Shown: one piece after another, positions 15,702-58,217 of the stretch
How positions within the stretch are numbered: position 1 is the stretch's first letter
Layout: every line of letters starts with the position of its first letter
Source: Actinomycetota bacterium
GTDB lineage: Bacteria > Actinomycetota > Acidimicrobiia > IMCC26256 > PALSA-610
Length of the DNA: 64,000 bases
Direction: 5' to 3'
NCBI GenBank assembly: GCA_003134555.1
Contig: PLBO01000103.1
Span: 19,251 to 83,250, forward strand
Position numbers and translations under genes: made by a program
Notes under the pieces: model-generated
Told to the model about the DNA's origin: nothing
The model's database searches: none
The model's input: the letters and a program-made list of their open reading frames with translations, nothing else

Positions 15702-16528
15702 GCGTCGCCGAAGCCTTCGGGCATGAGGACGGTCGGATCGATCTGGCCGGTGAACAATCCGCCTTTGAAGCCACCGTCGCAGTCGAACTGCAAGCCGGTG
15801 ACGAACGATGAACGCGGACTGTTGAGGAACACCATGGGCCAGGCCTGCTCGTCGGCAACCGCATGGCGACCGAGGGGAACCGGGAAGTCATCCATGTACT
15901 TCTTGCCCACGGCCTTCTCGAACTCGGGCATCATCGGCGTGTCGGTCGGACCGGGATTCACGCAGTTGATGCGGATCCCGTCCTTGGCGAGGTTGAACGA
16001 ACGAAACGCGGTGTACGCGTTGATGGCTTCCTTCGAAAGCCCGTACGCGTTCGCCAGCTCCTTGGGGTGTTCCTCGCACCACGCACGCGCCGCGGCGAAG
16101 TCGGGGGTGAGCACGAGCCCGAACAGCAGCTCCATGTTCTGCATCCATCCGATCCCCGCGGTCGACGCGATACTCGCGATAGACGAGCCCTCGATCATGA
16201 GCGGGATCACCGACTCGGTCACCTGACGAAGTCCGCAGAAGTTGACGAGCATGACGTCGAGGTCGGGGAACGTGTTCGGCAGACCGGCGCAGTTGAAGAG
16301 CGCGTTCACGATCTTGCCGATCTTGCGGACCGTCTCGTCGATCTGTGCGGGGTCGCGCAGGTCGCACTGACTGAAGCTCGCCAGCCCGGTCACCTCGGGC
16401 TTCTTGATGTCGATCGCGTGCACCTCGGCACCGAGATCCACGAGGATCTGCGCGGTCGCCGCGCCCATCCCCGACGCCGCGCCCGTCACGATCACGCGCT
16501 TGCCCTCGTACTGCAGCACGTCGCTCAT
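15698..16528 (-). CDS. SDR-family oxidoreductase
   Basis: Motifs [11 protein letters not shown] and YGLSK. 276 aa. Lies 3 nt after the ferredoxin stop. Confidence 0.85.
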
Positions 16529-16531
16529 CCG

Positions 16532-16723
16532 TCAATCCTCCAAGGAAATGGCTCGTTCGGGGCAGTTCTCGGCGCCGATGCGCGCCTGTTCGGCGAGTGC
16601 GCCGTCGACCGCGGAGACGACGATCTCGCAGTGGCCGAAGTCGTCGGGCGCGAAGACGTCGGGCGCCAGCACATAGCAGCGACCATGACCGACGCAGAGG
16701 TCGGGATCGACACGCACCTTCAC
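16532..16723 (-). CDS. Small ferredoxin (3Fe-4S type, CxxHxxC...CP)
   Basis: 63 aa with CVGHGRC...CPERAI. This is typical of actinobacterial P450-type ferredoxins. Confidence 0.8.
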   Translation of the reverse strand: MKVRVDPDLCVGHGRCYVLAPDVFAPDDFGHCEIVVSAVDGALAEQARIGAENCPERAISLED

Positions 16724-16797
16724 CGCGACTCTCCTTCTCGTTCGCGACTCGTGACGCGCGACGCGCCGCCGGGCGGCGTGTGCACGGCCGAGATCCT

Positions 16798-17964
16798 ATG
16801 CTCCGGGCCGTGTGGCCCCGCACGTCGGTCTCGGTGTGTCTCGTCGCGCTCGCCGCGACGGCATGCAGTAGTGGCGGCGGCAACCACTCGAGCGCGCCAC
16901 CGGCGGCGTCCACGACCACGACGGTTCCCGGCTACCGACTCGACAGCACTTTGCGCCTCGATCAGGTGCAGGTTCTGGGGTCGCACAACAGCTACCACGG
17001 TCGCCCGTACCCACAGGTGCTCGCCGCGCTGCGCAACGGGAATGCCGGGCTCGCGCTGACTCTCGACTACGCGCACGCACCGCTGCCCCGCCAATTCGCG
17101 CTCGGCGTACGCCAGATCGAGCTCGACGTGTGGTCGGATCCGCTCGGGGGCAAGTACGCCCGGCCGTCGTTTCCGATCCAGGTCGGTGTACGCCTGCTCG
17201 ACAACCCCGTGATGCGCACGCCCGGCTACAAGGTCATCCACCAGGCCGACGTCGACACGAACTCGACGTGTCTCACCTTCGTCTCGTGCATCCGGCTCGT
17301 CCGCGCGTGGTCGGATGCGCACCCGGGCCACGTGCCGATCGACATCCACGTCGAGATGAAGGACGATCGCGTGACCGAACCGATGTTCGCCGCACTTGAG
17401 CGCGAGATCCGCTCGGTGTTCGCCCGCGATCAGATCGTCACGCCCGACGACGTGCGCGGCAACGCCCCCACGTTGGGGCAAGCAGTCCGCGCGCACGGGT
17501 GGCCGACGCTCGGCGCGGTCAGGGGCAAGGTGTACTTCACTCTCGACAACGAGTCGGTCCGCGACGCCTACCTGAGCGGTCACCCGTCGCTGCGCGGTCG
17601 TCTGCTCTTCACGCCGTCGTCGCCCGGTCAAGACGATGCCGCGTACGCGAAGTTGAACGATCCGATCGCCGACGCGCCGCGGATCAAAGCCGCGCTGGCC
17701 GCGCACATGATCGTGCGCACCCGCGCCGACGCCGACACGTTCGCCGCCCGGGCGAACGACACGCACATGGAGCGAGCGGCGCTGACTGGTGGCGCGCAAC
17801 TCGTGAGCACCGACTACGAGCAGCCCGACCCGACCATCGGCAACGGCTACGTGGTGCGCATCCCCGGCGGAACACCGGCGCGCTGTGATCCCGTTAGCGG
17901 ACCACCCGATTGCAAACCGACCGACGTCGAGGATCCGGCGCGGCTGACGGTCAAAGTTCGCTGA
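16798..17964 (+). CDS. PLC-like phosphodiesterase (Ca2+-dependent PI-PLC-like) lipoprotein
   Basis: From ATG 16798: MLRAVWPRTSVSVCLVALAATACSSGG (lipobox), then VLGSHNSYH and IELDVW. The track ORF begins at 16597 with an Arg-rich shadow extension. Confidence 0.75.
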   Translation: MLRAVWPRTSVSVCLVALAATACSSGGGNHSSAPPAASTTTTVPGYRLDSTLRLDQVQVLGSHNSYHGRPYPQVLAALRNGNAGLALTLDYAHAPLPRQFALGVRQIELDVWSDPLGGKYARPSFPIQVGVRLLDNPVMRTPGYKVIHQADVDTNSTCLTFVSCIRLVRAWSDAHPGHVPIDIHVEMKDDRVTEPMFAALEREIRSVFARDQIVTPDDVRGNAPTLGQAVRAHGWPTLGAVRGKVYFTLDNESVRDAYLSGHPSLRGRLLFTPSSPGQDDAAYAKLNDPIADAPRIKAALAAHMIVRTRADADTFAARANDTHMERAALTGGAQLVSTDYEQPDPTIGNGYVVRIPGGTPARCDPVSGPPDCKPTDVEDPARLTVKVR

Positions 17965-28487: not shown

Positions 28488-29461
28488 GCCGGCTCGCGGC
28501 GTGCATCGACCTGATGGCGCGCGACGCGCTCGACGTGCTCGTGCTCGGACGAGAGGCGAACGCGCGGACCGTCACCGAAGTCTCCCGCCTCTGGCTGGCG
28601 GGGACTCGGCCGTTCTCCCCCGGTTGTGTGGTCGTCCGGCGAACTGCCGCCGTGCATGTTCTCGCCAACACCGACGCGGTCGTCGAGTCTGGCTTCCCCG
28701 TCGAGCGTCTCTACGGCATCACCTGGAATCCGGAAAAGCTGCTCGCCGCGCTCGGTGCGATCGACGGGCTGCAAGACGCCCGGCGCGTCGCGGTCGACGG
28801 GATGACTCCGATGATGAGCGCGCTGCTCGCGGGCGCGATGCCCGCGGCCGAAGTAGTCGACGCCGGACCGTTGTTCGCGGAGCTTTGGAGCGTGCCCGAC
28901 CCAGAGAAGCGCGCGGGTGTCGAGGGCGCGGCGACGGTGGCCGGATGCGGGCTCGGCGCGATGGTCACCGCACTCCGGCCCGACGTGACACCCCGCGAGC
29001 TACGGGGTGTCTGTGCGGCGGCATTCGCGTCGCAAGGCGTCACGACGCCTGCCTTCGAGGCGGTGGCGGCCCCGCTCGACGACAGCTCGTCGACATGGTT
29101 GCCACCCGAGCGCGCCTTCGTCGACGGCGAGCCGGTCGGGTTGCGCGCCGGCGCGCTGCACGACGGCTGGGAGGCATCGCTCGCGCGCACATACGTCGTC
29201 GGGTCGCCGTCGATCGAACAGCCCGCGCCCGCGGGGTGGGACGAGCTCGTGGCCGCGTGCGTCGCAGGCGCGAGCGTGGGCGACCTCCGCCGGCGTGGAG
29301 CCGTCGTCCACGGCGCCGGCCGCGGCGTCGAACCGTGGCCCGACAGCCTGGTCGTGGCGCCCGGGCTCATGATGGCGCTGGAGTACCGCAACGGCGCCAG
29401 ACTCCGCCAGGACATCCTCCGCATCACCGACCGCCACCCGGTGGTCATCACCACCCCCTGA
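28484..29461 (+). CDS. M24-like paralog with degenerate metal site (probable non-catalytic partner)
   Basis: GTG 28484 overlaps the upstream stop (GTGA). It has the creatinase-like N-domain and pita-bread region, but the Asp/Asp ligand positions read LRAGAL / WEASL by eye. Confidence 0.65.
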   Translation: MSRLAACIDLMARDALDVLVLGREANARTVTEVSRLWLAGTRPFSPGCVVVRRTAAVHVLANTDAVVESGFPVERLYGITWNPEKLLAALGAIDGLQDARRVAVDGMTPMMSALLAGAMPAAEVVDAGPLFAELWSVPDPEKRAGVEGAATVAGCGLGAMVTALRPDVTPRELRGVCAAAFASQGVTTPAFEAVAAPLDDSSSTWLPPERAFVDGEPVGLRAGALHDGWEASLARTYVVGSPSIEQPAPAGWDELVAACVAGASVGDLRRRGAVVHGAGRGVEPWPDSLVVAPGLMMALEYRNGARLRQDILRITDRHPVVITTP

Positions 29462-29465
29462 CAAA

Positions 29466-29590
29466 TTTCTTGCCAACAGTTCGCAAGGAAAGTGACCGGC
29501 GGCGTCCGTTTTCTTGCCAACAGTTCGCTGAGAAAGTGACCCCAAGCGCCGGTTTTCCGCGCAACAGTTGCGCGGGAAGCGGGGTTAGGG
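29466..29590. repeat. Three tandem 44-bp-period units with a palindromic core centred on AACAGTT (site A)
   Basis: Core centres lie at 29478, 29522 and 29566. Units 29466-29497 and 29510-29541 are 29/32 identical. The third core is a perfect 19-bp palindrome CCGCGCAACAGTTGCGCGG (29557-29575). The segment is AT-richer than its surroundings and fills the whole gap between convergent genes. Confidence 0.9.
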
Positions 29591-34230: not shown

Positions 34231-36651
34231 TCACGCGTCGTCGCGGGGCGGCGCGATCGCGACGACCCGCTGCAGTCCCCCCGGGCACACCTTCGAGCCA
34301 CCGCCATCGCGTGACGCGGCGCGCACGCCCTGCCCGGGCACGACGAGACACGCGTCGGCGGCGAGGAAGGCGAGCGTGTCGGCGGCCGGCGTCATCGCAA
34401 CCAGAGGTCCGCGCGCCTTGTCGATCTTCGCCGCCTTGAGGCCCGAGCCACCTCGAGTCTGCACCGGGAATTCGTCTACCTCGGTGCGCTTGGCGAAACC
34501 CTGCTCGGTCGCGATCACGACGAGCTCGCCGTCGGCGGCGGCGCACCCGCCGATCACCCGGTCGTCGCCCTTCAGGCGGATGCCGCGGATACCGCCGGCC
34601 GACCGGCCGACCGGGCGGACGTCGCCCTCGGCGAAGCGGATGCCCTGCCCGTTGGCGGAAAGGAGCAACAGCTCGTAGTCGTCCCAACCGGGGAACACGG
34701 CGACGACGCGCTCGTCGGCGGCCAGCTTCATCGCCACGATGCCGTTCTGGCGTCCGGACGCTTCGGTGAACTCGCTGAGCGCAGTGCGCTTCACTCCGCC
34801 CGTCGAGGTCACGAACACGAGGTTCGGGTGATCCTCGTGCAACCGCGCGTCGAGCACGGCCACGACCTGCTCACCGTCGCCGAACTGGAAGAGATTCTGC
34901 GCGGCGCTCAGCTTCTCCTTCGGCAGCTCGTGCACCGTGGCCCGGTACGCGCGCCCGCGGTCGGTGAAGAACAGGAGCCCAGAAAGCGCGGTGGTATCGA
35001 TCGCCTGCGCGACCGCGTCGCGATCGCCCGGGTTCGCGACGAGCGACTTCCGGGTGCGCGCGGGCACGGCGCGCACGTAGCCGCGCGCGGTCACGGTGGT
35101 CACGTAGGGCTCGTCTTCGACGAGCGCGACGACGTCGAGCGCGCCCGCATCGTCGCTCATGATCGGGGTCCGGCGCGGCGCCTTGTGGGCGTCGCGGATG
35201 GCGACGAGCTCCTCCCGGATGACGCCCATCAGCACGTCGTGCTTGGCCAGGATGCCGCGCAGCTGCTTGACCGTCGCCTCGAGCTCCTTGCGTTCCTTGT
35301 CGAGCTCCGCCCGGCCGAGCTGCGTGAGCCGCCCGAGCGGCATGTCGAGGATGTGGTTGGCCTGGATCTCCGAGAAACCGAAGCGCTTGTCCATCAACGC
35401 GCTGCGCGCCGCGGCGCGATCCTTCGACGCGCGGATCGCCTTCACGATCGCGTCGATCATGTCGAGCGCCTTCACCAGGCCCTCGACGATGTGCAGGCGA
35501 TCCTGGGCCTTCTGCAGGCGGAACTTGCTTCGTCGGGTCACGACGACCACTTGATGATCGAGCCAGTGCTGCAGAGCTTCGGAGAGCGTGACCGTTCGGG
35601 GAACGTCGTCGACGAGCGCGACCATGTTGACCGGGAAGGTGCTCTGCGCCGCCGTGTGCTTGAAGAGATTGTTCAGCACGATCTGCGGGTTCGTGTCGGG
35701 ACGAAGCTCGATGACGAGACGGGTCTTCCCCTGCCCGGACTCGTTGCGGATGTCGCGCACGCCGTCGATCTTGCCGGCGAGCACGAGCTCCGTCAGCTTT
35801 CCCGAGATCGCGTCGACGCTCGTCTGGAACGGAACCTCGGTGAGCACGATCGCCTGACCGCCGCGGCGCGGGAGCTCCTCGATCTCGTGGACCGCGCGCA
35901 CGCGGATGGTGCCGCGCCCGGTTCGGAACGCGTCCTTGATCCCGTCGTCACCCATGATGAGGCCGCCGGTCGGGAAGTCGGGACCCTTCACGATGCGCAT
36001 CAGCTCCGAGAGCGTGACGTCGGGCTTGTCGATCAACTTCACGGCCGCGTTGCACACCTCGGCGAGGTTGTGGGGCGGGATGTTGGTGGCCATTCCGACC
36101 GCGATGCCCTGCGCGCCGTTCACCAACAGGTTGGGAAACCGCGCCGGGAGGACGACGGGTTCGGTACGCGAGCCGTCGTAGTTCGGCTCGAAATCGACGG
36201 TTCCCTCGTCGATACCGGCGAGCAGCTCCATCGCGAGCGGCGACAGGCGACACTCGGTGTAGCGCGACGCCGCGGGCGGATCGGACGGCGATCCGAAGTT
36301 CCCGTGCTTGTCGATCAACGGCGCGGTCAGCGAGAAAGGCTGGCCCATCCGGACGAGCGCGTCGTAGATCGCGGTGTCGCCGTGCGGGTGGTAGTTGGCC
36401 ATGACCTCACCGACGACGCGCGCGCACTTGACGAACGGTCGATCGGGCCGGAGGTTCGAGTCGTGCATCGCCCAGAGGATGCGGCGGTGGACGGGCTTCA
36501 ACCCGTCGCGGACGTCGGGTAGCGCGCGCTGGACGATGACGCTCATCGCGTACTCGAGGAACGCGCCCTCGACTTCTTCCTGCAGCGTGCGCGTCGGAAT
36601 CTCCGACGGCGGCTCGAGAGTCAGTTGGTTGGTCGTGGTCCGACGGGCCAT
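34231..36651 (-). CDS. parC: Type IIA topoisomerase subunit A (GyrA/ParC family; ParC-like, no GyrA box seen)
   Basis: 806 aa with EYAMSVIVQRALPDVRDGLKPVHRRILW and a beta-pinwheel C-terminal domain. The region after ...TARGYVRAV lacks a QRRGGKG-type GyrA box. GGAGA Shine-Dalgarno, 12 nt after the subunit B stop. Confidence 0.85.
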   Translation of the reverse strand: MARRTTTNQLTLEPPSEIPTRTLQEEVEGAFLEYAMSVIVQRALPDVRDGLKPVHRRILWAMHDSNLRPDRPFVKCARVVGEVMANYHPHGDTAIYDALVRMGQPFSLTAPLIDKHGNFGSPSDPPAASRYTECRLSPLAMELLAGIDEGTVDFEPNYDGSRTEPVVLPARFPNLLVNGAQGIAVGMATNIPPHNLAEVCNAAVKLIDKPDVTLSELMRIVKGPDFPTGGLIMGDDGIKDAFRTGRGTIRVRAVHEIEELPRRGGQAIVLTEVPFQTSVDAISGKLTELVLAGKIDGVRDIRNESGQGKTRLVIELRPDTNPQIVLNNLFKHTAAQSTFPVNMVALVDDVPRTVTLSEALQHWLDHQVVVVTRRSKFRLQKAQDRLHIVEGLVKALDMIDAIVKAIRASKDRAAARSALMDKRFGFSEIQANHILDMPLGRLTQLGRAELDKERKELEATVKQLRGILAKHDVLMGVIREELVAIRDAHKAPRRTPIMSDDAGALDVVALVEDEPYVTTVTARGYVRAVPARTRKSLVANPGDRDAVAQAIDTTALSGLLFFTDRGRAYRATVHELPKEKLSAAQNLFQFGDGEQVVAVLDARLHEDHPNLVFVTSTGGVKRTALSEFTEASGRQNGIVAMKLAADERVVAVFPGWDDYELLLLSANGQGIRFAEGDVRPVGRSAGGIRGIRLKGDDRVIGGCAAADGELVVIATEQGFAKRTEVDEFPVQTRGGSGLKAAKIDKARGPLVAMTPAADTLAFLAADACLVVPGQGVRAASRDGGGSKVCPGGLQRVVAIAPPRDDA

Positions 36652-36663
36652 CGCGTTGTCTCC

Positions 36664-38664
<2,001 letters not shown>

Positions 38665-50039: not shown

Positions 50040-50766
50040 CCTCGCCGTTGAGGTAGCCGTTCTCGACGATGTGCTGCGCGAGAGCCGCGTACTCGTCGGG
50101 CCGGCCCAGCCGCTTCGGGAACGGAACATTCGCGGCGAAGACGTCGCGCATCGCTTCCGGCACCATCATCATCGGTGGCGTCGCGATCGTTCCGGGCGCG
50201 ATGGTGCAGACCCGCACCCCGACCGACGAGAGGTCGCGCGCGGCGATGATCGTCATCCCTATGACGCCCGCCTTGGCCGAGCCGTAGGCGACCTGACCGA
50301 TCTGCCCTTCGTACCCGGCAATCGACGCGGTGAGCACGCACACGCCGCGCTCGCCACCCTCGTCGGCATCGTTCTTCGCCATCGCCGCCGCCGCCAGCCG
50401 GAGCATGTTGAACGAGCCAACCAGGTTCAGCTCGACGACGCGCCGAAACGCGTCGAGGTCGTGGGGTGTTCCGTCGCGCGCGAGCGTGCGGGCCGCGATC
50501 CCGCCACCACCACAGTGCACGCAGATCGCAAGCCGGCCGCGATCCGCGGCCGCTTCGACCGCGGCGGTCACCTCGCCCTCGGAGGTGACGTCGCAGCGGA
50601 CGAAACGATCCGAGCCCCCCAGTTCAGTCGCGACCGCACGACCGCGCTCCTCCGCGATGTCGGCGACGATCACGGTCGCGCCCGCCGCGTGCAGACGCCG
50701 GGCCGTCGCCTCACCCAGCCCGGAGGCAGCACCCGTTACGAGCGCGACGTTGCCGGCAATTTCCAC
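49999..50766 (-). CDS. SDR, HSD10/3-hydroxyacyl-CoA dehydrogenase type II-like (paralog of 46428..47204)
   Basis: GTG 50766 is preceded by AAAGGAGA. Motifs VTGAASGLGEA, YGSAK and C-terminal NGEVIRLDGAVRFQPK. Confidence 0.85.
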   Translation of the reverse strand: MEIAGNVALVTGAASGLGEATARRLHAAGATVIVADIAEERGRAVATELGGSDRFVRCDVTSEGEVTAAVEAAADRGRLAICVHCGGGGIAARTLARDGTPHDLDAFRRVVELNLVGSFNMLRLAAAAMAKNDADEGGERGVCVLTASIAGYEGQIGQVAYGSAKAGVIGMTIIAARDLSSVGVRVCTIAPGTIATPPMMMVPEAMRDVFAANVPFPKRLGRPDEYAALAQHIVENGYLNGEVIRLDGAVRFQPK

Positions 50767-51815
50767 AGCTCGTCTCCTTTCTCCGCGATGCGGTCGACCA
50801 GCGTTCGTTCTCCCGCGCAGACCACGTACTCGACGTTCCGCAGATGCGAGACCCGCCCGACCTTCTTGCCATCGGGATTGTGGATGCCGATCTGGGCCCC
50901 GACATAGCGCCGAGATTCGAACGCGAGCGTCGCCACGACGCCGCCGCGCGCCCGGCAGGCCGCTTCGAGCGCGTCGATCTCCACCCACGACTCGTTGTTG
51001 TACGACACGACGACGAGCTCGGCGTCGACGTCGCGGATGATGCCCAGGAGCGCGTCCGGCATCGCCCGGCGGTCGTTGAACACGCTCTTGGTCGACGCGT
51101 CGCGCGCGTCGACACGCTTGCAGGCAACTCCGTAGTGCTCGGGCGCGTCCCACGCAACCAGCGTCTCCCACACGTGGTAGTTCGTGAAGTAGCGGTGTTG
51201 GTTGTACGGCGGGTCGAGATACGCGAGGTCGAAGGGCCCCAGAGTTCGCACCGCGTCGACTGCGTCGGCCCGCAGCGCGACTCCGGGACCCGGCACGAAT
51301 TCCGGGACGCGCAGCGCGATCGGCCGGTAGGAGCGATCGGCCCACGCCTTGACGTACGCCATCTGCACGCCGGTCGTGGAGTCGACCCGATCCGCGGCTT
51401 CGATGAGACTCGTCAGCAACAGCGGATACATCCAGCTCTCGCGGTAGTCGCACTCGATCGCGTCGCGCATCGCGTCGATCCGCCGGCCGTTGTCGGGCTG
51501 GAAGAAACGAGACCGAATGCAAAACGTCTCGGTGAAATAGCCGTCGACCCCGGGTCGGTTCGACAGGTCGACGAGCGCGGCTTCGAGTGCTTCGATGTCG
51601 GCCGGCTCGCCGTCGAGCGCGACGTAGCACTCGGCGAACACTTCGGCGTAGCGGGCCGTGTCGACCGCGGTGACGTGCGCACCCCGGCGCTTGAGCTCCT
51701 GGGCGACGCGCGTCGTGCCGGTAAAGAGGTCCAACGCCCGCCGCGCGCCCGCGACCGTCGCGATCGCGCCCAGGACCGGAACCAGCCGTCGTTTCGAACC
51801 GAGGTACTTGATCAC
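50736..51815 (-). CDS. Dam-like (D12 class, alpha-type) N6-adenine DNA methyltransferase, solitary
   Basis: N-terminal IKYLGSKRRL, motif I LDLFTGTT, motif IV LDPPYNQHRY, then VVVSYNN. Start tentatively at GTG 51815. The stop lies 31 nt inside the downstream SDR ORF. Confidence 0.8.
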   Translation of the reverse strand: MIKYLGSKRRLVPVLGAIATVAGARRALDLFTGTTRVAQELKRRGAHVTAVDTARYAEVFAECYVALDGEPADIEALEAALVDLSNRPGVDGYFTETFCIRSRFFQPDNGRRIDAMRDAIECDYRESWMYPLLLTSLIEAADRVDSTTGVQMAYVKAWADRSYRPIALRVPEFVPGPGVALRADAVDAVRTLGPFDLAYLDPPYNQHRYFTNYHVWETLVAWDAPEHYGVACKRVDARDASTKSVFNDRRAMPDALLGIIRDVDAELVVVSYNNESWVEIDALEAACRARGGVVATLAFESRRYVGAQIGIHNPDGKKVGRVSHLRNVEYVVCAGERTLVDRIAEKGDELWKLPATSRS

Positions 51816-54166: not shown

Positions 54167-55354
54167 TCACGGTTGTTGCAGCGCTTCGGGCACCGCGTGG
54201 CGGAACAGCTTGGAGGCGTTCTCCCACGTGACCTTGCGGACGACATCCGCCGGCACGTCGCGCAATGCGGCCGTCGCGTTGGGTTGCGTGTCGGGCCACG
54301 TGGAATCGGCGTGCGGGTAGTCGCTCTCGAGACAGATGCGGTCGACGCCGATGTGGTCTCGGAGCGCGAACGTGGATCCGATGTCGATCGTGCAGAACCA
54401 GAAATTGCGTCGCAGCGCTTCGGTCGGCGAGATGTCGGTGGCCGCCCAACCGTGCGAGCCGACGGCCGAGTGATCGAGCACGTAGTCGATCCGATCGATC
54501 AGCATCGGCACCCAGCTGATGCCGCCTTCCGAGAACGCGATCTTGATCTTCGGAAAGCGGGTGGGAACCTGGGCCCAGAGCCAGTCGGCCGCGGTGACGA
54601 GCGCGTTGACCGGGAACAAGCTGGTGTAGAGCTCGAGCGGCGCACCCGGCGAACGGGCCGCGGTCCACGACGACGAGCCATTGTGCAGGCAGACGACCGT
54701 CTCCGTCTCTTCGCACGCGCGCAGGAACGGGTCCCAGTGCGTATCGATCATCGGCGGGAGCTGCAGGTCGACCGGGTTCTCCGGGAAGCTCACTGCCTTG
54801 AACCCGCGCTCGGCGTTGCGCCGCACGTCGGCGGCCGCGACCTGCGGATCGACCACCCAGGCGAGCTGCAACGGGATCACGCGATCGGGATGCGGCCCGG
54901 CCCACTCGTCTATGTGCCAGGCGTTCCACGCGCGCAACGCCGCCAGTCCGAGCTCCGGATCCTTGCTCTTCGCGAAGATCGTGCCCGCGAACCCGGCGAT
55001 GAGCGAAGGAAAGCAGAGCGACGCCAACACGCCGTCGAGATTCATGTCGGCGACGCGGGCTTCGATGTCGTAACAGCCGCGGCGCATCTCGTCGAAGCGC
55101 GCCGGTTCCATGCTCCACTCGGCCTTGGGCCGGCCCGCGACCGCGTTGAGACCGACCTGCGGGTAGAAGTTGTCCTCGTAGATCCACGTCTCCCGGCCGT
55201 CGTCGAGGGTCACGACGCGGGGCGCTCGCTCCTGCAACGCCGACGGAAGCCGCCCCTCGAAGCAGTGCGCGGGCTCGATCAGGTGGTCGTCGACCGAGAT
55301 GATCGTGTAGTTGCGGACGCGCGGCTCGGGATCCGGAAGGAAGGTCGCGGTCAT
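54167..55354 (-). CDS. Amidohydrolase-2 family protein
   Basis: ATG 55354 overlaps the TetR stop (ATGA). ...ISVDDHLIEP...CLESDYPHADS. Confidence 0.82.
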   Translation of the reverse strand: MTATFLPDPEPRVRNYTIISVDDHLIEPAHCFEGRLPSALQERAPRVVTLDDGRETWIYEDNFYPQVGLNAVAGRPKAEWSMEPARFDEMRRGCYDIEARVADMNLDGVLASLCFPSLIAGFAGTIFAKSKDPELGLAALRAWNAWHIDEWAGPHPDRVIPLQLAWVVDPQVAAADVRRNAERGFKAVSFPENPVDLQLPPMIDTHWDPFLRACEETETVVCLHNGSSSWTAARSPGAPLELYTSLFPVNALVTAADWLWAQVPTRFPKIKIAFSEGGISWVPMLIDRIDYVLDHSAVGSHGWAATDISPTEALRRNFWFCTIDIGSTFALRDHIGVDRICLESDYPHADSTWPDTQPNATAALRDVPADVVRKVTWENASKLFRHAVPEALQQP

Positions 55355-55911
55355 CGGCGGCCGACGCCTTCGATGCAGAAGCGCTGCAGGTAGCGCGCAA
55401 GCTCGTGCGTGTCGGCGACGCGGCCGACCACGACGTCGTCGATACCGTCGAGCAGCACCGCGAACATCGTGCGCGCGTCGCGTTTCGGATCGTCGGAGTC
55501 GATGTAGCGCGCGAGCAGGTCGACGAGCGGGGCCAGCGCGTCGCGCAATTCGTCTTCGTGGAACTCCGTGAGGCGCCGACGCTCTCGCACGAGAACACCC
55601 GCATAGCCGGTCGCTTCCGCGGGCGTGAGCATGTCGAAGAGCTCGAACACGTAGGCGCGCAGGGCGTCGGTTCCGGTGCGCGTGCCGATGCGCTCGGCGA
55701 GGATGTCGGCGCCGATCCGGCTGTCCTCCGCGAGGAGCGCGATGAGCAGGTCGTCCTTGCTGCGGAAGCACGAATAGAACGCCTTGAGCGAAACGCCTGC
55801 CCGCATGGCGAGCTGCGCAACCGTGAAGGCTGCGCTGCCCGTCTCGTTCGCCAAGACCCGGGCCGACGCCACGAGCCGCTGCGGACGGTCGGGCTCTTCC
55901 GAGAACGCCAT
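55351..55911 (-). CDS. TetR-family transcriptional regulator
   Basis: N-terminal HTH FTVAQLAMRAGVSLKAFYSCFRSKDDLL. 186 aa. Confidence 0.88.
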   Translation of the reverse strand: MAFSEEPDRPQRLVASARVLANETGSAAFTVAQLAMRAGVSLKAFYSCFRSKDDLLIALLAEDSRIGADILAERIGTRTGTDALRAYVFELFDMLTPAEATGYAGVLVRERRRLTEFHEDELRDALAPLVDLLARYIDSDDPKRDARTMFAVLLDGIDDVVVGRVADTHELARYLQRFCIEGVGRR

Positions 55912-55935
55912 TCTCCCAGCCTAGACCCCTAGTAA

Positions 55936-56003
55936 TCCACCAAACAGTTTGGCGCGAAAACCGCTCCACGCGCCGGTTTTCCACCAAACAGTTTGGCGCG
56001 AAA
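55936..56003. promoter_or_regulatory. Two identical 24-bp direct repeats, each with a perfect 13-bp palindrome CCAAACAGTTTGG (site B); candidate TetR operators
   Basis: TCCACCAAACAGTTTGGCGCGAAA occurs at 55936-55959 and 55980-56003 (period 44 bp). The repeats lie 25-92 nt upstream of the TetR ATG (55911) and directly after the TAA stop of the thiolase-like gene (56011-56013). Confidence 0.75.
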
Positions 56004-56010
56004 TGGGGGG

Positions 56011-57156
56011 TTAGGCGGGCTGGGAGCGGAGGATGCCCATCGCGAAGTACTGGGCGCCGCCGCCGTAGGCCTGGGCGAGCGCGGTGCGCGCGCCGTCGAC
56101 CTGATGCTCACCGGCGAGCCCCCGCACCTGGAGCGCGGCCTCGGCGAACCGCAGCATCCCCGACGCGCCGATCGGGTTCGACGACAACACGCCGCCCGAC
56201 GCGTTCACCGGGAACGAGCCGGTCAGCTCGGTGTCGCCGCTCTCGACCATCTTCCAGCCCTCGCCGGGGCCGGCGATGTCGTGACCCTCGAGCCACATCG
56301 GCTCGTACCAGCTGAAGGGCACGTACAGCTCGGCGACGTCGATCTCCTGACGCGGAACACTGATCCCGGCCTGGCGGTACACGTCGTGCGCGCACTCCAC
56401 GCCCGCGAGCGGGCGAACGGGATCGCGCCCGGGGAAGGCACCGAGCTCGCTGCGGACGGCCGTCGCCGCGACCCACGCGGCCGGCTTCGACGCGCGCTTG
56501 CCGTTCGCCTCGTTGGTGAGCACGACCGCGCACGCGCCGTCGGACGACGGGCACGACTCGAGGAACCGCAGCGGGTCCCACAACATCGCCGATTCCTTCA
56601 CCTTCTCGATGCTGATGTCGGCCAGTTTCAGGTGCGCGTAGGGATTCTTGAGCGCGTTGAGGCGGTCTTTCACCGCGACCTGCCAGCCGATGTACTCGGG
56701 CGCGCCGGTCTTCTCGATGTACGCGCGGATCCACGGCGCGAACGCGCCGCCGGCACCGATGCCGCGACTGCGCCCGCCCGCCAGACCCCACTGCGCGTTG
56801 CCCTCGCTCTGCTTCTCCCACGAGATCGCGAGCACCCGTTCGTGGATGCGCGACTCGACGAGGTGCGCACCGACGATGAACGTCGAACCGCCGACGCTGC
56901 CCGCGGTGTGCACCCGCAGCATCGGCTTGCCCGCGCCGCCCAGCGCGTCGGCGAGGAACAGCTCCGGCTGCACGATCCCTTCGAACGCGTCGGGAGCCTT
57001 ACCGATGACGATCGCGTCGATGTCGGCCCAGGTGCACTCCGCGTCGTCGAGCGCCCGCGTCGCCGCCTCGCGCAACAACCCGGGGATCGAGACGTCGTCG
57101 CGCCGCTTCTTGTGGTGCGTCTGCCCGACGCCGATGACCGCGCACTGTTCCGCCAT
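56011..57156 (-). CDS. Thiolase-fold (SCP-x/Ltp-like) protein lacking the canonical Cys nucleophile
   Basis: ATG 57156 with a GGAGGG Shine-Dalgarno. MAEQCAVIGVGQT... The expected NxxC(A/S)(S/G)G position reads VHTAGSVGGST. C-terminal GGVLSSNPIGASG has Asn where His is expected. TAA stop. Confidence 0.8.
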   Translation of the reverse strand: MAEQCAVIGVGQTHHKKRRDDVSIPGLLREAATRALDDAECTWADIDAIVIGKAPDAFEGIVQPELFLADALGGAGKPMLRVHTAGSVGGSTFIVGAHLVESRIHERVLAISWEKQSEGNAQWGLAGGRSRGIGAGGAFAPWIRAYIEKTGAPEYIGWQVAVKDRLNALKNPYAHLKLADISIEKVKESAMLWDPLRFLESCPSSDGACAVVLTNEANGKRASKPAAWVAATAVRSELGAFPGRDPVRPLAGVECAHDVYRQAGISVPRQEIDVAELYVPFSWYEPMWLEGHDIAGPGEGWKMVESGDTELTGSFPVNASGGVLSSNPIGASGMLRFAEAALQVRGLAGEHQVDGARTALAQAYGGGAQYFAMGILRSQPA

Positions 57157-57158
57157 GA

Positions 57159-58217
57159 TCAGTCGCCCTCCATCAGGCACACCAGGTTGTGTTGCAGGAC
57201 CTGGCCGCCGGTCGCGTGCGCGAGTCCGCGGCTCGCGCTCCCCTCGACGATGCGCCGGGCGACCTCGACGATCCGCACGAGTCCGGTCGCCATGACCGGA
57301 TTGGCGGCGAGAGGTCCGCCGGACGGGTTCACGTTCGCGTCGGCGTCGACTCCCAACGCGTCGCGCAAGATCAGCTCCTGAGGGCTGAACGTCGACGACA
57401 GCTCGATGACGTCGAGTGGTCCGCCGTCGTAGCCCGCCTTGCGTGCGGCAAGTGCGGTCGAAGTCGACGTCGTCAGGTCGCGCATCCCCGGCTGGTGCAC
57501 CTCGATGCGGTGGTCGAGACCACGGATCCACGCGGGCCGCTTGCACAGCGCCCGCGCGCGATCGCCGCGCGCCAGCACGACCGCGACGGCGCCGTCGGAG
57601 ATCGGGGGAAGATCGTGTTTGCGCAATGGCGCACGCACGTACGGCTCGGCGAGCAGCTCGTCGACCGAGAAGTCGCCCGCGACCTGCGCGTTCGGATTGT
57701 CCTTGGCGTTGCGCCGGCTGCGCACGACCACGTTCGCGAAGTCGCGCTCGGTCGCCTTGCCCGCATCGAGCAGCGCGCGCGCCTGGATGCCGGCGAGCGA
57801 CGCGGGATCGACGCCGAGTGGCGCGAGGTAATACGGATCGAGTTGTTGCGCCCACATCTCTTCGGGCTTCGACGGCGACGACTTACCCGAGCCGAACACG
57901 AGCGCGGTGTCGATGTCGCCGTGCTGCAGCCGCACCCACGCTTCGTACATTGCCCACGCGCCGTCCATCTCGACGTGCGACTCCGAGATCGGAGGCCACG
58001 CGCCCGCAGCCTCGAGGTTCGACACGAAGGCGAAAGGACCGCCCGTGAGGTAGTCGCAGCTGCCCGCGCACGTGAACCCGACCTCGCGCCGGTCGAGGCC
58101 GGCGCGCTGCAGTGCTTCGGTGACGATCGGAACCAGCAGCTGCACTTCGCTCTCGCGCGCACGTCGCGTTGACGGCGTCTGCGCGTAGCCGACGACGGCG
58201 ATGTCTGTAGCGGCCAT
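57159..58217 (-). CDS. Thiolase-fold protein, second paralog, also without the canonical Cys
   Basis: ATG 58217 overlaps the upstream stop (ATGA). MAATDIAVVGYAQT... The nucleophile position reads VEMDGAWAM. C-terminal NPSGGPLAANPVMATG. Confidence 0.8.
   Translation of the reverse strand: MAATDIAVVGYAQTPSTRRARESEVQLLVPIVTEALQRAGLDRREVGFTCAGSCDYLTGGPFAFVSNLEAAGAWPPISESHVEMDGAWAMYEAWVRLQHGDIDTALVFGSGKSSPSKPEEMWAQQLDPYYLAPLGVDPASLAGIQARALLDAGKATERDFANVVVRSRRNAKDNPNAQVAGDFSVDELLAEPYVRAPLRKHDLPPISDGAVAVVLARGDRARALCKRPAWIRGLDHRIEVHQPGMRDLTTSTSTALAARKAGYDGGPLDVIELSSTFSPQELILRDALGVDADANVNPSGGPLAANPVMATGLVRIVEVARRIVEGSASRGLAHATGGQVLQHNLVCLMEGD

What the first reader, a model, noticed from the sequence alone, without database searches (positions are those of the whole stretch)
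55936..56016. Same repeat family as twin perfect palindromes upstream of a TetR gene, abutting a second TAA stop
TCCACCAAACAGTTTGGCGCGAAA occurs twice with 24/24 identity (55936-55959 and 55980-56003), again with a 44-bp period. Each copy contains the perfect palindrome CCAAACAGTTTGG. The copies lie 25-92 nt upstream of the TetR start and between two co-directional gene strings: ligase-DUF35-DUF35-thiolase-thiolase, then TetR-amidohydrolase-P450-ADH-MTase-SDR. This is the natural place for TetR autoregulatory operators. An additional inverted repeat AAAACCG...CGGTTTT bridges the two cores. The upstream thiolase-like gene ends in TAA inside the shared flank GGGGTTAGG, as the crotonase does at site A. 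I did not notice a TAA stop on any other gene whose stop I checked in this GC-rich window. That raises the possibility that the element contributes or selects the stop codon, through insertion at gene 3' ends.
Basis: partly seen in the sequence, partly recalled or inferred. Interest (0 to 1): 0.6.

Follow-up and report, generated by a model that had tools for sequence, protein, structure and literature searches.

The report
Dispersed palindromic repeat, not TetR operator
The twin palindromes upstream of the TetR gene are two units of a hairpin-forming intergenic repeat with a 44-bp period that occurs at many unrelated loci in uncultured Actinomycetota, so they are most likely REP/BIME-like repeat DNA and not this repressor's own operators.

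Summary
There are two 24/24 identical copies 44 bp apart, each with a 6+1+6 palindrome. They lie between a thiolase-like gene (TAA stop) and a TetR gene, both on the minus strand, and belong to the same family as the three units at 29466-29578.

The operator reading is not supported. The same units occur in related metagenomic genomes next to unrelated genes: rpsT, thyX, biotin carboxylase, SDRs, and convergent 3' ends. No TetR is present at those loci. Copy number differs between 95-96 % identical genomes (2 versus 5 units). Two TetR orthologues with a nearly invariant helix-turn-helix have no intact unit upstream. All ten TetR loci keep a different palindrome, GAGAAT-N3-GTTCTC, over the start codon, which is a better operator candidate.

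Two-unit arrays fold as one long hairpin (z -5 to -8), and the arms covary. The TAA idea is partly right. Array-adjacent stops are enriched for TAA (4/15 independent loci versus 1/87) and are followed by CCC. However, the stop is at the same codon position in an orthologue that has no intact unit.

One lead emerged. Two homologous AbiEi-HTH/Vsr-like nuclease genes, in different genomic contexts, are each flanked by inverted arrays.

Verdict: an undescribed REP/BIME- or MIRU-like family of moderate interest.

The parts
55976..56004 (-). Repeat unit B1 (thiolase-proximal). On the minus strand it reads ATTTC-GCGCC-AAAC-T-GTTT-GGTGG-AAAAC.
   Evidence: best profile hit in the window, 25.1 bits
55932..55961 (-). 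Repeat unit B2 (TetR-proximal). It has the same core as B1. Its centre lies about 35 nt upstream of the TetR ATG.
55962..55975 (.). Spacer between the two units. Together with the unit ends it forms the weak inverted repeat AAAACCG (55957-55963) / CGGTTTT (55974-55980). In other loci this spacer is a GC-rich hairpin.
56005..56013 (-). TAA stop of the thiolase-like gene (56011-56013) followed directly by a C-run (CCCCCC on the minus strand). This is the recurrent 'stop + CCC' flank of the arrays.
55920..55931 (-). Distal flank GGGGTCTAGG (minus strand). It pairs with GCCTAACCCC at the other end in the predicted long hairpin.
   Evidence: MFE -53.7 kcal/mol, z -5.0
55918..55923 (-). TAGGCT, a TANNNT -10-like hexamer that ends 6 nt before the TetR ATG. 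Its position is conserved in orthologues as TAGGCT, TATGCT, TACAAT or TAAAAT. It is the inferred promoter of a leaderless TetR operon.
   Evidence: inference, because the consensus scan reported no sigma-70 site
55901..55915 (.). Palindrome GAGAAT-GGC-GTTCTC overlapping the TetR start codon (55909-55911). It is a candidate for the true TetR operator.
   Evidence: unique exact match in the window; present in 10/10 TetR loci, including the two without repeats
55351..55911 (-). TetR/AcrR-family regulator gene (186 aa).
56011..57180 (-). Thiolase-like (Thiolase_C_1) gene whose TAA stop abuts the array.
29462..29584 (-). Site A array of three units (29466-29491, 29510-29535, 29553-29578) with a 44-bp period. 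It fills the gap between convergent genes. The M24-peptidase-like gene ends with TGA at 29459-29461, and the crotonase gene ends with TAA at 29585-29587.

Best explanation
The two palindromes are units of a dispersed, non-coding, hairpin-forming intergenic repeat family in a clade of uncultured Actinomycetota (Acidimicrobiia-like MAGs).

Anatomy. A unit is about 27 nt: (T/A)TTYC, a 4-6 nt arm, CC-AAC-[A/T]-GTT-GG, the complementary arm, then GAAAAC. Units are separated by a spacer of about 17 nt, which gives a 42-45 bp period. Arrays hold 2 to 5 or more units. They are bracketed by a C-run and a G-run and usually abut the neighbouring stop codons.

Shown here. (1) The family occurs at many unrelated loci. 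(2) It persists at orthologous positions, while unit number, unit type and the orientation of the central base change quickly, in a VNTR-like way. (3) The arms covary. (4) Two-unit arrays are predicted to fold as one long hairpin.

Inferred. (a) The arrays expand and contract by slippage or unequal exchange, and flip by intrastrand template switching. (b) At site B the roughly 90-nt hairpin between the thiolase stop and the TetR start acts, if it acts at all, as an intercistronic RNA/DNA structure, as REP/BIME clusters do in E. coli. That would mean partial termination or insulation, 3'-end protection of the upstream mRNA, or an RNase III target. (c) The TetR operon starts from its own TANNNT -10 as a leaderless transcript. 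(d) The TetR most likely autoregulates through the GAGAAT-N3-GTTCTC palindrome over its start codon, not through the repeats.
For: - Family at unrelated loci: L015 (helicase / YegS-like / ThyX) and L045 (amidohydrolase). Seventeen high-GC metagenome loci lie next to rpsT, 3-hydroxyisobutyrate dehydrogenase, glyoxalase, ABC/ArsR, PhzF, biotin carboxylase, SDRs, ECH and M24 genes.
- Orthologous persistence with turnover: site B has 1-4 intact cores in 8 lineages. L071 is 95-96 % identical to the window but carries about 135 extra nt, which is three more units. Site A orthologues L129 and L128 have 5 or more units and 2 units respectively.
- Covariation: 72.8 % of cells are paired against 66.3 % in shuffles. 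The covariation score is 0.253 against 0.136 (0/500 shuffles reach it), and slid controls score 0.13 or less. An independent script gave the same result.
- Long hairpins: z scores of -5.0 to -8.3 for 8 of 19 arrays.
- Against operator status: L133 and L134 have no intact unit although the HTH is conserved. The start-codon palindrome is conserved in 10/10 loci.
- The REP analogy for function rests on bioRxiv 10.64898/2026.03.23.713779 and on PMC3184786.
Against: - No transcript data exist, so the RNA-level role is inference only.
- The hairpin at site B lacks a U-tract, and the consensus scan found no terminator or sigma-70 promoter there.
- Unit polarity is not tied to the direction of transcription. 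This argues against a strand-specific RNA function.
- Copy number per genome is unknown and may be low. There are 2 arrays in 64 kb, and the narrow pattern gave only one hit per genome in two GTDB genomes. High copy number is a normal REP criterion.
- The last unit sits at a nearly constant distance of about 35-38 nt from the TetR ATG in 6 of 7 lineages with an intact TetR-proximal core. A promoter or regulatory contribution at this locus therefore cannot be excluded.
- The start-codon palindrome is partly coding (MAFS/MTFS), so its conservation could reflect protein-level constraint.
Confidence: 0.7

Rival explanations
1. One reading: the twin palindromes are tandem autoregulatory operators bound by dimers of the adjacent TetR, and site A is another operator site of the same regulon.
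For: The palindromes lie 25-92 nt upstream of the TetR start. Units are retained upstream of the TetR in 8 of 10 orthologous loci, with the last core about 35-38 nt from the ATG in most. Tandem palindromic operators are typical of TetR-family repressors (general knowledge).
Against: - Site A lies between convergent 3' ends.
- At least 14 other loci have no TetR and no functional coherence.
- The arms covary instead of being conserved.
- Unit number and sequence differ between 95-96 % identical genomes.
- L133 and L134 lack intact units although the recognition helix is nearly invariant.
- A better-conserved palindrome overlaps the start codon in all loci.
Confidence: 0.1
2. The units are the cognate DNA sites of an AbiEi-type winged-helix / Vsr-like (DUF559, REase_MTES_1575) nuclease. 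Either that gene, flanked by inverted arrays, is the autonomous element and the dispersed doublets are its non-autonomous derivatives (analogous to RAYT and REPIN, or to an IS and its MITEs), or the nuclease gene homes into arrays.
For: - In L127 a 312-aa gene is flanked on both sides by inverted arrays.
- Its 68 %-identical homologue P0122 was found by protein similarity alone. It is flanked in the same way on L135, in a different genomic context.
- 21/23 homologues match REase_MTES_1575 and 13/23 match AbiEi domains.
- The AlphaFold model (pLDDT 93) matches the AbiEi antitoxin 6y8q at its N-terminus. Its C-terminus matches the homing endonuclease I-Bth0305I catalytic domain 3r3p and the DUF559 protein 3hrl. 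Catalytic-type D/E/D/H residues are invariant.
- Nearly all homologues sit on 1-3.6 kb contigs, as expected if they are bounded by repeats.
Against: - There are only two loci, and L127 was ascertained through its arrays.
- The L135 units are divergent: they share the core and the architecture but do not reach significance with the unit profile.
- A housekeeping-type YegS-like gene in L015 is also flanked by arrays, so double flanking can happen by density alone.
- No such gene lies in the 64-kb window or in the other loci.
- Both kinds of element may simply accumulate in the same 'safe' intergenic spots.
Confidence: 0.2
3. The arrays are locally evolved bidirectional intrinsic terminators or 3'-UTR hairpins, not a mobile or copied repeat family.
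For: Most arrays abut at least one stop codon, and several lie between convergent genes. In L045, L095 and L082 the spacer is a GC-rich hairpin flanked by A- and T-runs.
Against: - Identical arm variants recur at unrelated loci and in different genomes. For example, CTCCACCAACAGTTGTCGGAG occurs in both L015 and L132.
- Arrays also lie in divergent promoter regions (lepA/rpsT in L072, and L124).
- There is no U-tract at site B, and no terminator was called there.
- The context classes are roughly what random intergenic placement would give.
Confidence: 0.08

Closest known systems
REP / BIME clusters and REPIN doublets (Enterobacteria, Pseudomonas)
   Same: Both are short imperfect palindromes confined to intergenic DNA. 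Both cluster with short linkers and occur between convergent genes and inside operons. Doublets fold into one long hairpin, unit orientation can alternate, and positions and numbers vary between strains (PMC3184786; PMC12306157; bioRxiv 10.64898/2026.03.23.713779).
   Different: There is no sequence similarity and no 5' GTAG-type tetranucleotide. The period is a regular 42-45 bp and many arrays are direct repeats. Copy number appears modest. The host is Actinomycetota. No RAYT was seen. The only recurrently associated gene is an AbiEi/Vsr-like nuclease.
MIRU-VNTR loci of Mycobacterium
   Same: Both occur in an actinobacterial host. Both have 40-100 bp units in tandem in intergenic regions, including within operons. 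Both are present at a limited number of loci, show copy-number polymorphism between close relatives, and have ends that touch adjacent genes (PMC3184786).
   Different: MIRUs overlap both the stop and the start codons and carry small ORFs. The units here are strongly palindromic, only abut stops, and have an unrelated sequence.
BOX elements of Streptococcus pneumoniae
   Same: Both are modular intergenic elements with a variable number of tandem sub-units of about 45 nt. Both have strong predicted secondary structure and can affect neighbouring gene expression (PMC3184786).
   Different: BOX elements have distinct boxA and boxC ends, occur in Firmicutes, and have an unrelated sequence.
TetR-family operators (for example the KstR-type TnnAACnnGTTnnA)
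   Same: Both are palindromic sites with an AAC...GTT core upstream of a TetR gene in a lipid or steroid-like catabolic cluster.
   Different: The units here are dispersed at non-promoter and unrelated loci. Their arms covary and their number is unstable. The start-codon palindrome GAGAAT-N3-GTTCTC fits operator behaviour better.
RAYT-REP and IS-MITE partnerships; free-standing homing endonuclease genes
   Same: In both, a nuclease or DNA-binding gene is bracketed by inverted copies of the dispersed repeat, and the repeat variant differs with the protein variant (L127 versus L135).
   Different: The partner here is an AbiEi-wHTH plus Vsr-like PD-(D/E)xK protein, not an HUH Y1 transposase or a DDE transposase. 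The partnership rests on two loci and is untested.

Membership tests
REP/BIME (criteria of PMC12306157) | Extragenic location | tested here: met
   All five window units, and all units in the 17 metagenome loci and in L015 and L045, lie outside confidently called genes.
REP/BIME | Palindromic, forming a stem-loop | tested here: met
   Arm covariation; long-hairpin folds with z down to -8.3.
REP/BIME | Short unit with a common consensus | tested here: met
   Unit of about 27 nt with consensus TTYC-N4-6-CCAACWGTTGG-N4-6-GAAAAC.
REP/BIME | Many copies per genome | tested here: inconclusive
   There are 2 arrays (5 units) in 64 kb. No other array lies in the 20-kb flanks of 8 orthologous loci. A narrow pattern hit two GTDB genomes once each. 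No complete genome could be scanned.
REP/REPIN-RAYT system | Associated RAYT (Y1 HUH transposase) gene flanked by the repeats | tested here: not met
   No Y1_Tnp hit among the window proteins scanned. The flanked gene found is AbiEi/DUF559-like. Whole genomes were not testable.
MIRU-VNTR | 40-100 bp units in tandem, intergenic, with copy-number polymorphism | tested here: met
   Period of 42-45 bp; 2 versus 5 units between 95-96 % identical genomes.
MIRU-VNTR | Unit ends overlap the stop and start codons of flanking ORFs, and the units carry in-frame small ORFs | tested here: not met
   Arrays abut stops (gaps between -6 and +46 nt; 14 of 21 within 3 nt), but the TetR start lies 17 nt or more beyond the last unit. 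No such ORF structure was seen.
MIRU-VNTR | Sequence homology to the mycobacterial MIRU consensus | not tested
   No MIRU sequence was available in the tools. Rfam found nothing.
TetR operator of the adjacent regulator | Site co-occurs with the regulator across orthologues that have a conserved recognition helix | tested here: not met
   L133 and L134 have a nearly invariant HTH but no intact unit in 217 nt and 203 nt upstream.
TetR operator of the adjacent regulator | Sites restricted to promoter regions of regulated genes | tested here: not met
   Site A and several other arrays lie between convergent 3' ends, and the neighbours are unrelated in function.
TetR operator of the adjacent regulator | Direct binding by the protein | not testable with these tools
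   Needs EMSA or footprinting.
Integron attC site | RYYYAAC ... GTTRRRY boundary boxes and a neighbouring integrase or cassette array | tested here: not met
   GCCTAAC is present at site B and GTTAGGC in L061. Other arrays are flanked by TGACCCC, TGAAAA and similar sequences. No integrase was found, and the flanking genes are syntenic housekeeping or catabolic genes.
Intrinsic terminator | GC-rich hairpin followed by a U-tract | tested here: inconclusive
   None was called at site B. Spacer hairpins with T-runs occur in L045, L082 and L095.
CRISPR array | Repeats separated by unique spacers of about 30-40 nt | tested here: not met
   Spacers are about 17 nt and are repeated together with the units.

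The most novel reading that the evidence does not exclude
The repeats are the DNA partner of a previously unrecognised selfish system in Acidimicrobiia-like Actinomycetota. An AbiEi-type winged-helix / Vsr-like (DUF559, homing-endonuclease-like) nuclease gene is bracketed by inverted arrays. The dispersed hairpin doublets, such as the one upstream of this TetR, would be its non-autonomous copies or its homing targets. They would land immediately 3' of stop codons (TRA|CCC). This would be a REPIN-RAYT-like partnership built on a PD-(D/E)xK nuclease instead of an HUH transposase.
Probability: 0.2. Interest if true: 0.7.

Novelty: new member of a known kind. Interest (0 to 1): 0.4.

Why it matters
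- It removes a plausible but wrong regulatory annotation. The palindromes in front of this TetR are repeat DNA. A different, testable operator candidate is available: GAGAAT-N3-GTTCTC over a probably leaderless start.
- It documents a REP/BIME- or MIRU-like family in a poorly studied, uncultured actinobacterial lineage. The family is copy-number variable, so it could serve as a strain marker. It may also tune expression between adjacent genes.
- The enrichment of TAA stops and of a C-run right after the stop is a small, concrete case of a repeat shaping or selecting stop-codon context.
- If the association with AbiEi/Vsr-like nuclease genes holds up, it would point to a new kind of enzyme partner for hairpin repeats.

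Tried and rejected
- Rfam with permissive thresholds on both sites returned only chance-level hits.
- The consensus promoter/terminator scan of 55700-56200 found nothing.
- The GTDB genome scan with TTCN6AACTGTTN5GAAAACSG gave 49 single hits, of which 47 were chance and only L015 and L045 were real. The source genome is not among the species representatives.
- In the metagenome scan, 51 of 68 hits were low-GC chance or unrelated tandem repeats.
- The viral-contig scan returned only low-GC chance hits.
- BLAST of the element and tblastn of the nuclease against plasmids found no match.
- The exact-protein look-up of the TetR returned only identical intergenic regions. The apparent 17-nt gap in L003 was a gene-call artefact.
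- The MAFFT alignment intended to show repeat remnants in L133 was uninformative. Possible remnants were seen by eye only, for example GAGTCCGACAAAGGTTG after the thiolase and CCCGCCGCAGTCTGGCGG upstream of the TetR.
- Two distant TetR orthologues (P0088, P0118) had no retrievable DNA.
- A target-site-duplication model (TA, TNA or YTAR) was considered and rejected, because the two flanks of an array are not direct repeats.
- attC, CRISPR and parS/dif-type sites were considered and rejected on anatomy.
- A PDB sequence search of the TetR found only one weak TetR-family hit.
- A search for further GAGAA-N5-TTCTC sites in the window gave only chance-level one-mismatch matches, at positions inside called genes.
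Full report
**1. The observation**

The sequence is as described. TCCACCAAACAGTTTGGCGCGAAA occurs at 55936-55959 and 55980-56003 with 24/24 identity and 44-bp spacing. The core CCAAAC-A-GTTTGG is a 6+1+6 palindrome found exactly twice in the window; with up to two mismatches the search gave five matches, against a shuffle mean of 0.19, and no shuffle reached five. AAAACCG (55957-55963) and CGGTTTT (55974-55980) bridge the copies.

GC3-based gene calls and Pfam show that all relevant genes are on the minus strand. The upstream string is acyl-CoA ligase, two ChsH2-type DUF35 proteins and two thiolase-like genes; the last of these is 56011-57180 and stops at TAA (56011-56013). The downstream string is TetR (55351-55911), amidohydrolase, P450, ADH, D12 methyltransferase and SDR.

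Site A (29466-29578) has three units with the same 44-bp period. It lies between convergent genes. An M24-peptidase-like gene ends with TGA at 29461, and a crotonase gene ends with TAA at 29585-29587. A third TAA stop exists, on the methyltransferase gene at 50736-51815. AACWGTT occurs eight times in the window, five of them in these two intergenic gaps. A profile of 53 units finds only these five.

**2. A family, not a local feature**

A pattern scan of GTDB species genomes gave mostly chance hits, plus two real loci in Actinomycetota MAGs.
- L015 has an inverted pair between a helicase fragment and a YegS-like gene, and a second array before thyX.
- L045 has three units directly after an amidohydrolase stop.

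A two-unit pattern scan of metagenome contigs returned 17 high-GC loci with clear family members. Their neighbours are unrelated: rpsT (between lepA and rpsT, in two lineages), 3-hydroxyisobutyrate dehydrogenase, glyoxalase, ABC/ArsR, PhzF, biotin carboxylase, SDRs, glutathione peroxidase, hemolysin-III and DUF1345. A TetR gene is present only at orthologues of site B.

TetR homologues are named by their sources as Actinomycetota or Acidimicrobiia MAGs. Rfam, plasmid and viral searches found nothing.

**3. Anatomy**

Oriented on the central T, a unit reads (T/A)TTYC, a 4-6 nt arm, CC-AAC-T-GTT-GG, the complementary arm, then GAAAAC. A spacer of about 17 nt follows, often CCGGCGCG..CGCGCCGG-like. 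The period is 42-45 bp, most often 44.

The arms differ between loci with compensatory changes. Examples are CTCCC/GGGAG, CTGCC/GGCAG, CAAGCC/GGCTTG, CACCC/GGGTG and CGCGCC/GGCGCG. On 50 distinct units, 72.8 % of cells pair against 66.3 % in shuffles. The covariation score is 0.253 against 0.136 (0/500 shuffles reach it), and slid registers score 0.13 or less. A separate script gave the same picture.

Complementarity between the facing arms of adjacent units is as good as within units. ViennaRNA folds two-unit arrays as a single long hairpin with a small GC tip. The z scores are -8.3 (L015), -8.0 (L132, L095), -6.9 (L115, L077), -6.1 (L131) and -5.0 (window site B, -53.7 kcal/mol). Site A is weaker (z -1.9).

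The central base and the asymmetric inner positions flip between copies, and even between orthologues: L128 has AA and L129 has TTTT. This is expected for hairpin-mediated template switching. Polarity does not follow the direction of transcription.

**4. Persistence with rapid turnover**

The thiolase-TetR gap carries units in eight lineages whose TetR is 71-95 % identical. The number of intact cores ranges from 1 to 4, the arms differ, and the gap length ranges from 99 to 235 nt. L071 is 95-96 % identical to the window over the flanking genes, yet has about 135 extra nucleotides, which is three more units of a different subtype. L129 and L128 are orthologues of site A, with 88 % and 85 % nucleotide identity in the crotonase gene. 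They carry 5 or more units and 2 units respectively. This is VNTR-like behaviour.

**5. The TetR-operator hypothesis**

Several lines count against it, beyond the dispersal and the convergent site A.
- In L133 (TetR 65 % identical) two genes are inserted between the thiolase and the TetR. In L134 (67 %) there is no thiolase upstream at all.
- Neither locus has an AACWGTT unit in the 217-nt or 203-nt upstream region, nor a profile hit.
- The helix-turn-helix segment is nevertheless almost invariant.
- All ten TetR loci keep GGAGAATG-N-CRTTCTCC over the ATG (window 55901-55915). It is a perfect 17-mer in L061 and L134. All ten also keep a TANNNT hexamer 6-8 nt upstream of the ATG.

GGGAGA directly abuts the ATG, so it cannot act as a normally spaced Shine-Dalgarno sequence. 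I therefore infer a leaderless transcript whose start is covered by this palindrome, which is the better operator candidate. A similar palindrome, GAGAACCACGTTCTC, lies about 1.1 kb beyond the window end, upstream of the SNF2 helicase gene (L001:775).

Binding of the TetR to the repeats cannot be excluded without experiments. The last unit does sit about 35-38 nt from the ATG in most lineages, so it may contribute -35-region sequence.

**6. Stop codons**

Arrays usually fill the whole gap and abut stops; the gaps range from -6 to +46 nt, and 14 of 21 are within 3 nt.
- Among array-adjacent genes the stop is TAA in 6/21 cases. In loci independent of the window it is TAA in 4/15. Other genes of the same contigs give 1/87 (Fisher p = 1.7e-4 and 1.5e-3).
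- CCC follows the stop in 11/21 cases against 5/87 (p = 3e-6).

TAA is not fixed, however. Site-B orthologues use TAA, TGA or TAG. In L058 a TGA stop is followed by two separate TAACCC(C) copies. In L133, which has no intact unit, the stop is at the same codon position (LRSQSS* against LRSQPA*).

My reading is inference only. T(A/G)ACCCC is the outer edge of the element and the base of the long hairpin. Genome compaction presses it against, or merges it with, the resident stop. Because C at +4 is a poor termination context in E. coli (general knowledge, not checked here), TAA may then be favoured. The element does not create the stop position at site B.

**7. A lead on propagation**

In L127 a 312-aa gene is bracketed by two arrays whose spacers are reverse complements of each other. 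A protein search found 28 homologues, nearly all on 1-3.6 kb contigs. The one whose DNA I could still fetch is P0122, 68 % identical, on L135. Its gene is again bracketed by inverted two-unit arrays with AACTGTT/AACAGTT cores 42 nt apart, and the gene-proximal units are reverse complements of each other. Its neighbour is unrelated to the neighbour in L127.

The family combines AbiEi-type winged-helix domains with REase_MTES_1575/DUF559. A confident AlphaFold model (pLDDT 93) matches the AbiEi antitoxin 6y8q at its N-terminus. Its C-terminus matches the catalytic domain of homing endonuclease I-Bth0305I (3r3p), DUF559 protein 3hrl, and other Vsr-like nucleases. Acidic and histidine residues of catalytic type are invariant.

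This resembles RAYT genes flanked by REPs, or a homing nuclease gene sitting in its target. The caveats are substantial.
- There are only two loci, and one was ascertained through its arrays.
- The L135 units are divergent and not significant with the profile.
- An ordinary YegS-like gene in L015 is also flanked by arrays.
- No such gene is in the window.

**8. Comparison with known systems**

By the criteria listed in PMC12306157 and PMC3184786, the family behaves like REP/BIME clusters or REPIN doublets. It is extragenic, palindromic, short, has a consensus and is clustered. It also behaves like MIRU or BOX arrays, with tandem units of about 45 bp and variable number. It fails or leaves open some membership features.
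- Copy number per genome is unknown.
- There is no RAYT and no GTAG motif.
- There are no MIRU-type overlapping ORFs.

By analogy with E. coli REP325, which is a partial terminator plus mRNA stabiliser inside an operon (bioRxiv 10.64898/2026.03.23.713779), the site-B hairpin may insulate the TetR operon from the upstream operon. That role is untested.

**9. Verdict**

The family assignment is confirmed and greatly extended. The operator interpretation is not supported. The TAA link is partly supported. This is a previously undescribed member of the known class of small intergenic hairpin repeats, as far as the searches show. It comes with one interesting but thinly supported lead, the AbiEi/Vsr-like nuclease partner.

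Noticed in passing
window 50736-51815 (-): A D12-class (Dam-like) N6-adenine DNA methyltransferase gene sits inside the TetR-amidohydrolase-P450-ADH-...-SDR catabolic string. It ends with the window's third TAA stop and overlaps the SDR gene by 31 nt. It is kept at this position in the orthologous loci that extend that far (L001, L002, L055-L061, L131-L133). This is an odd passenger for a catabolic operon.
   Followed up: partly
window 55901-55915; L001:775-789 (about 1.1 kb beyond the window end); L131:563; L132:11: The palindrome GAGAAT-N3-GTTCTC overlaps the TetR start codon in 10/10 orthologous loci. A similar palindrome (GAGAACCACGTTCTC) lies upstream of the SNF2-helicase / LuxR-type regulator region. 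Together they may form a small TetR regulon with KstR-like half-sites.
   Followed up: partly
L127:514-1452 (-) and L135:447-1385 (+): Homologous AbiEi-wHTH / Vsr-like (DUF559) nuclease genes are each bracketed by inverted arrays of the repeat family, in different genomic contexts.
   Followed up: partly
L127:1580-1614: A run of the hexamer GGCTGG (five or more copies) lies immediately next to an array, at the end of the contig.
   Followed up: no
L072:1141-1290 and L130:328-520: Arrays of 3-5 units lie directly upstream of ribosomal protein S20 (rpsT), in two lineages with different unit variants. In L072 the gene on the other side is lepA.
   Followed up: partly
L133:6967-10000 and 15793-16955: In this relative a PLD-like gene and a phosphoesterase gene are inserted between the thiolase and the TetR. 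An encapsulin (Linocin_M18) plus EncFtn pair follows the methyltransferase gene.
   Followed up: no
window 34231-38616 (-): A GyrB-like / GyrA-like type II topoisomerase gene pair lies next to a large MaoC-domain gene, not next to dnaA/dnaN/recF. It could be a second topoisomerase pair.
   Followed up: no
L060 and L131 (gene tables): Several conserved genes are split into fragments in these long contigs. This looks like frameshift errors of long-read assemblies and not real pseudogenes.
   Followed up: no
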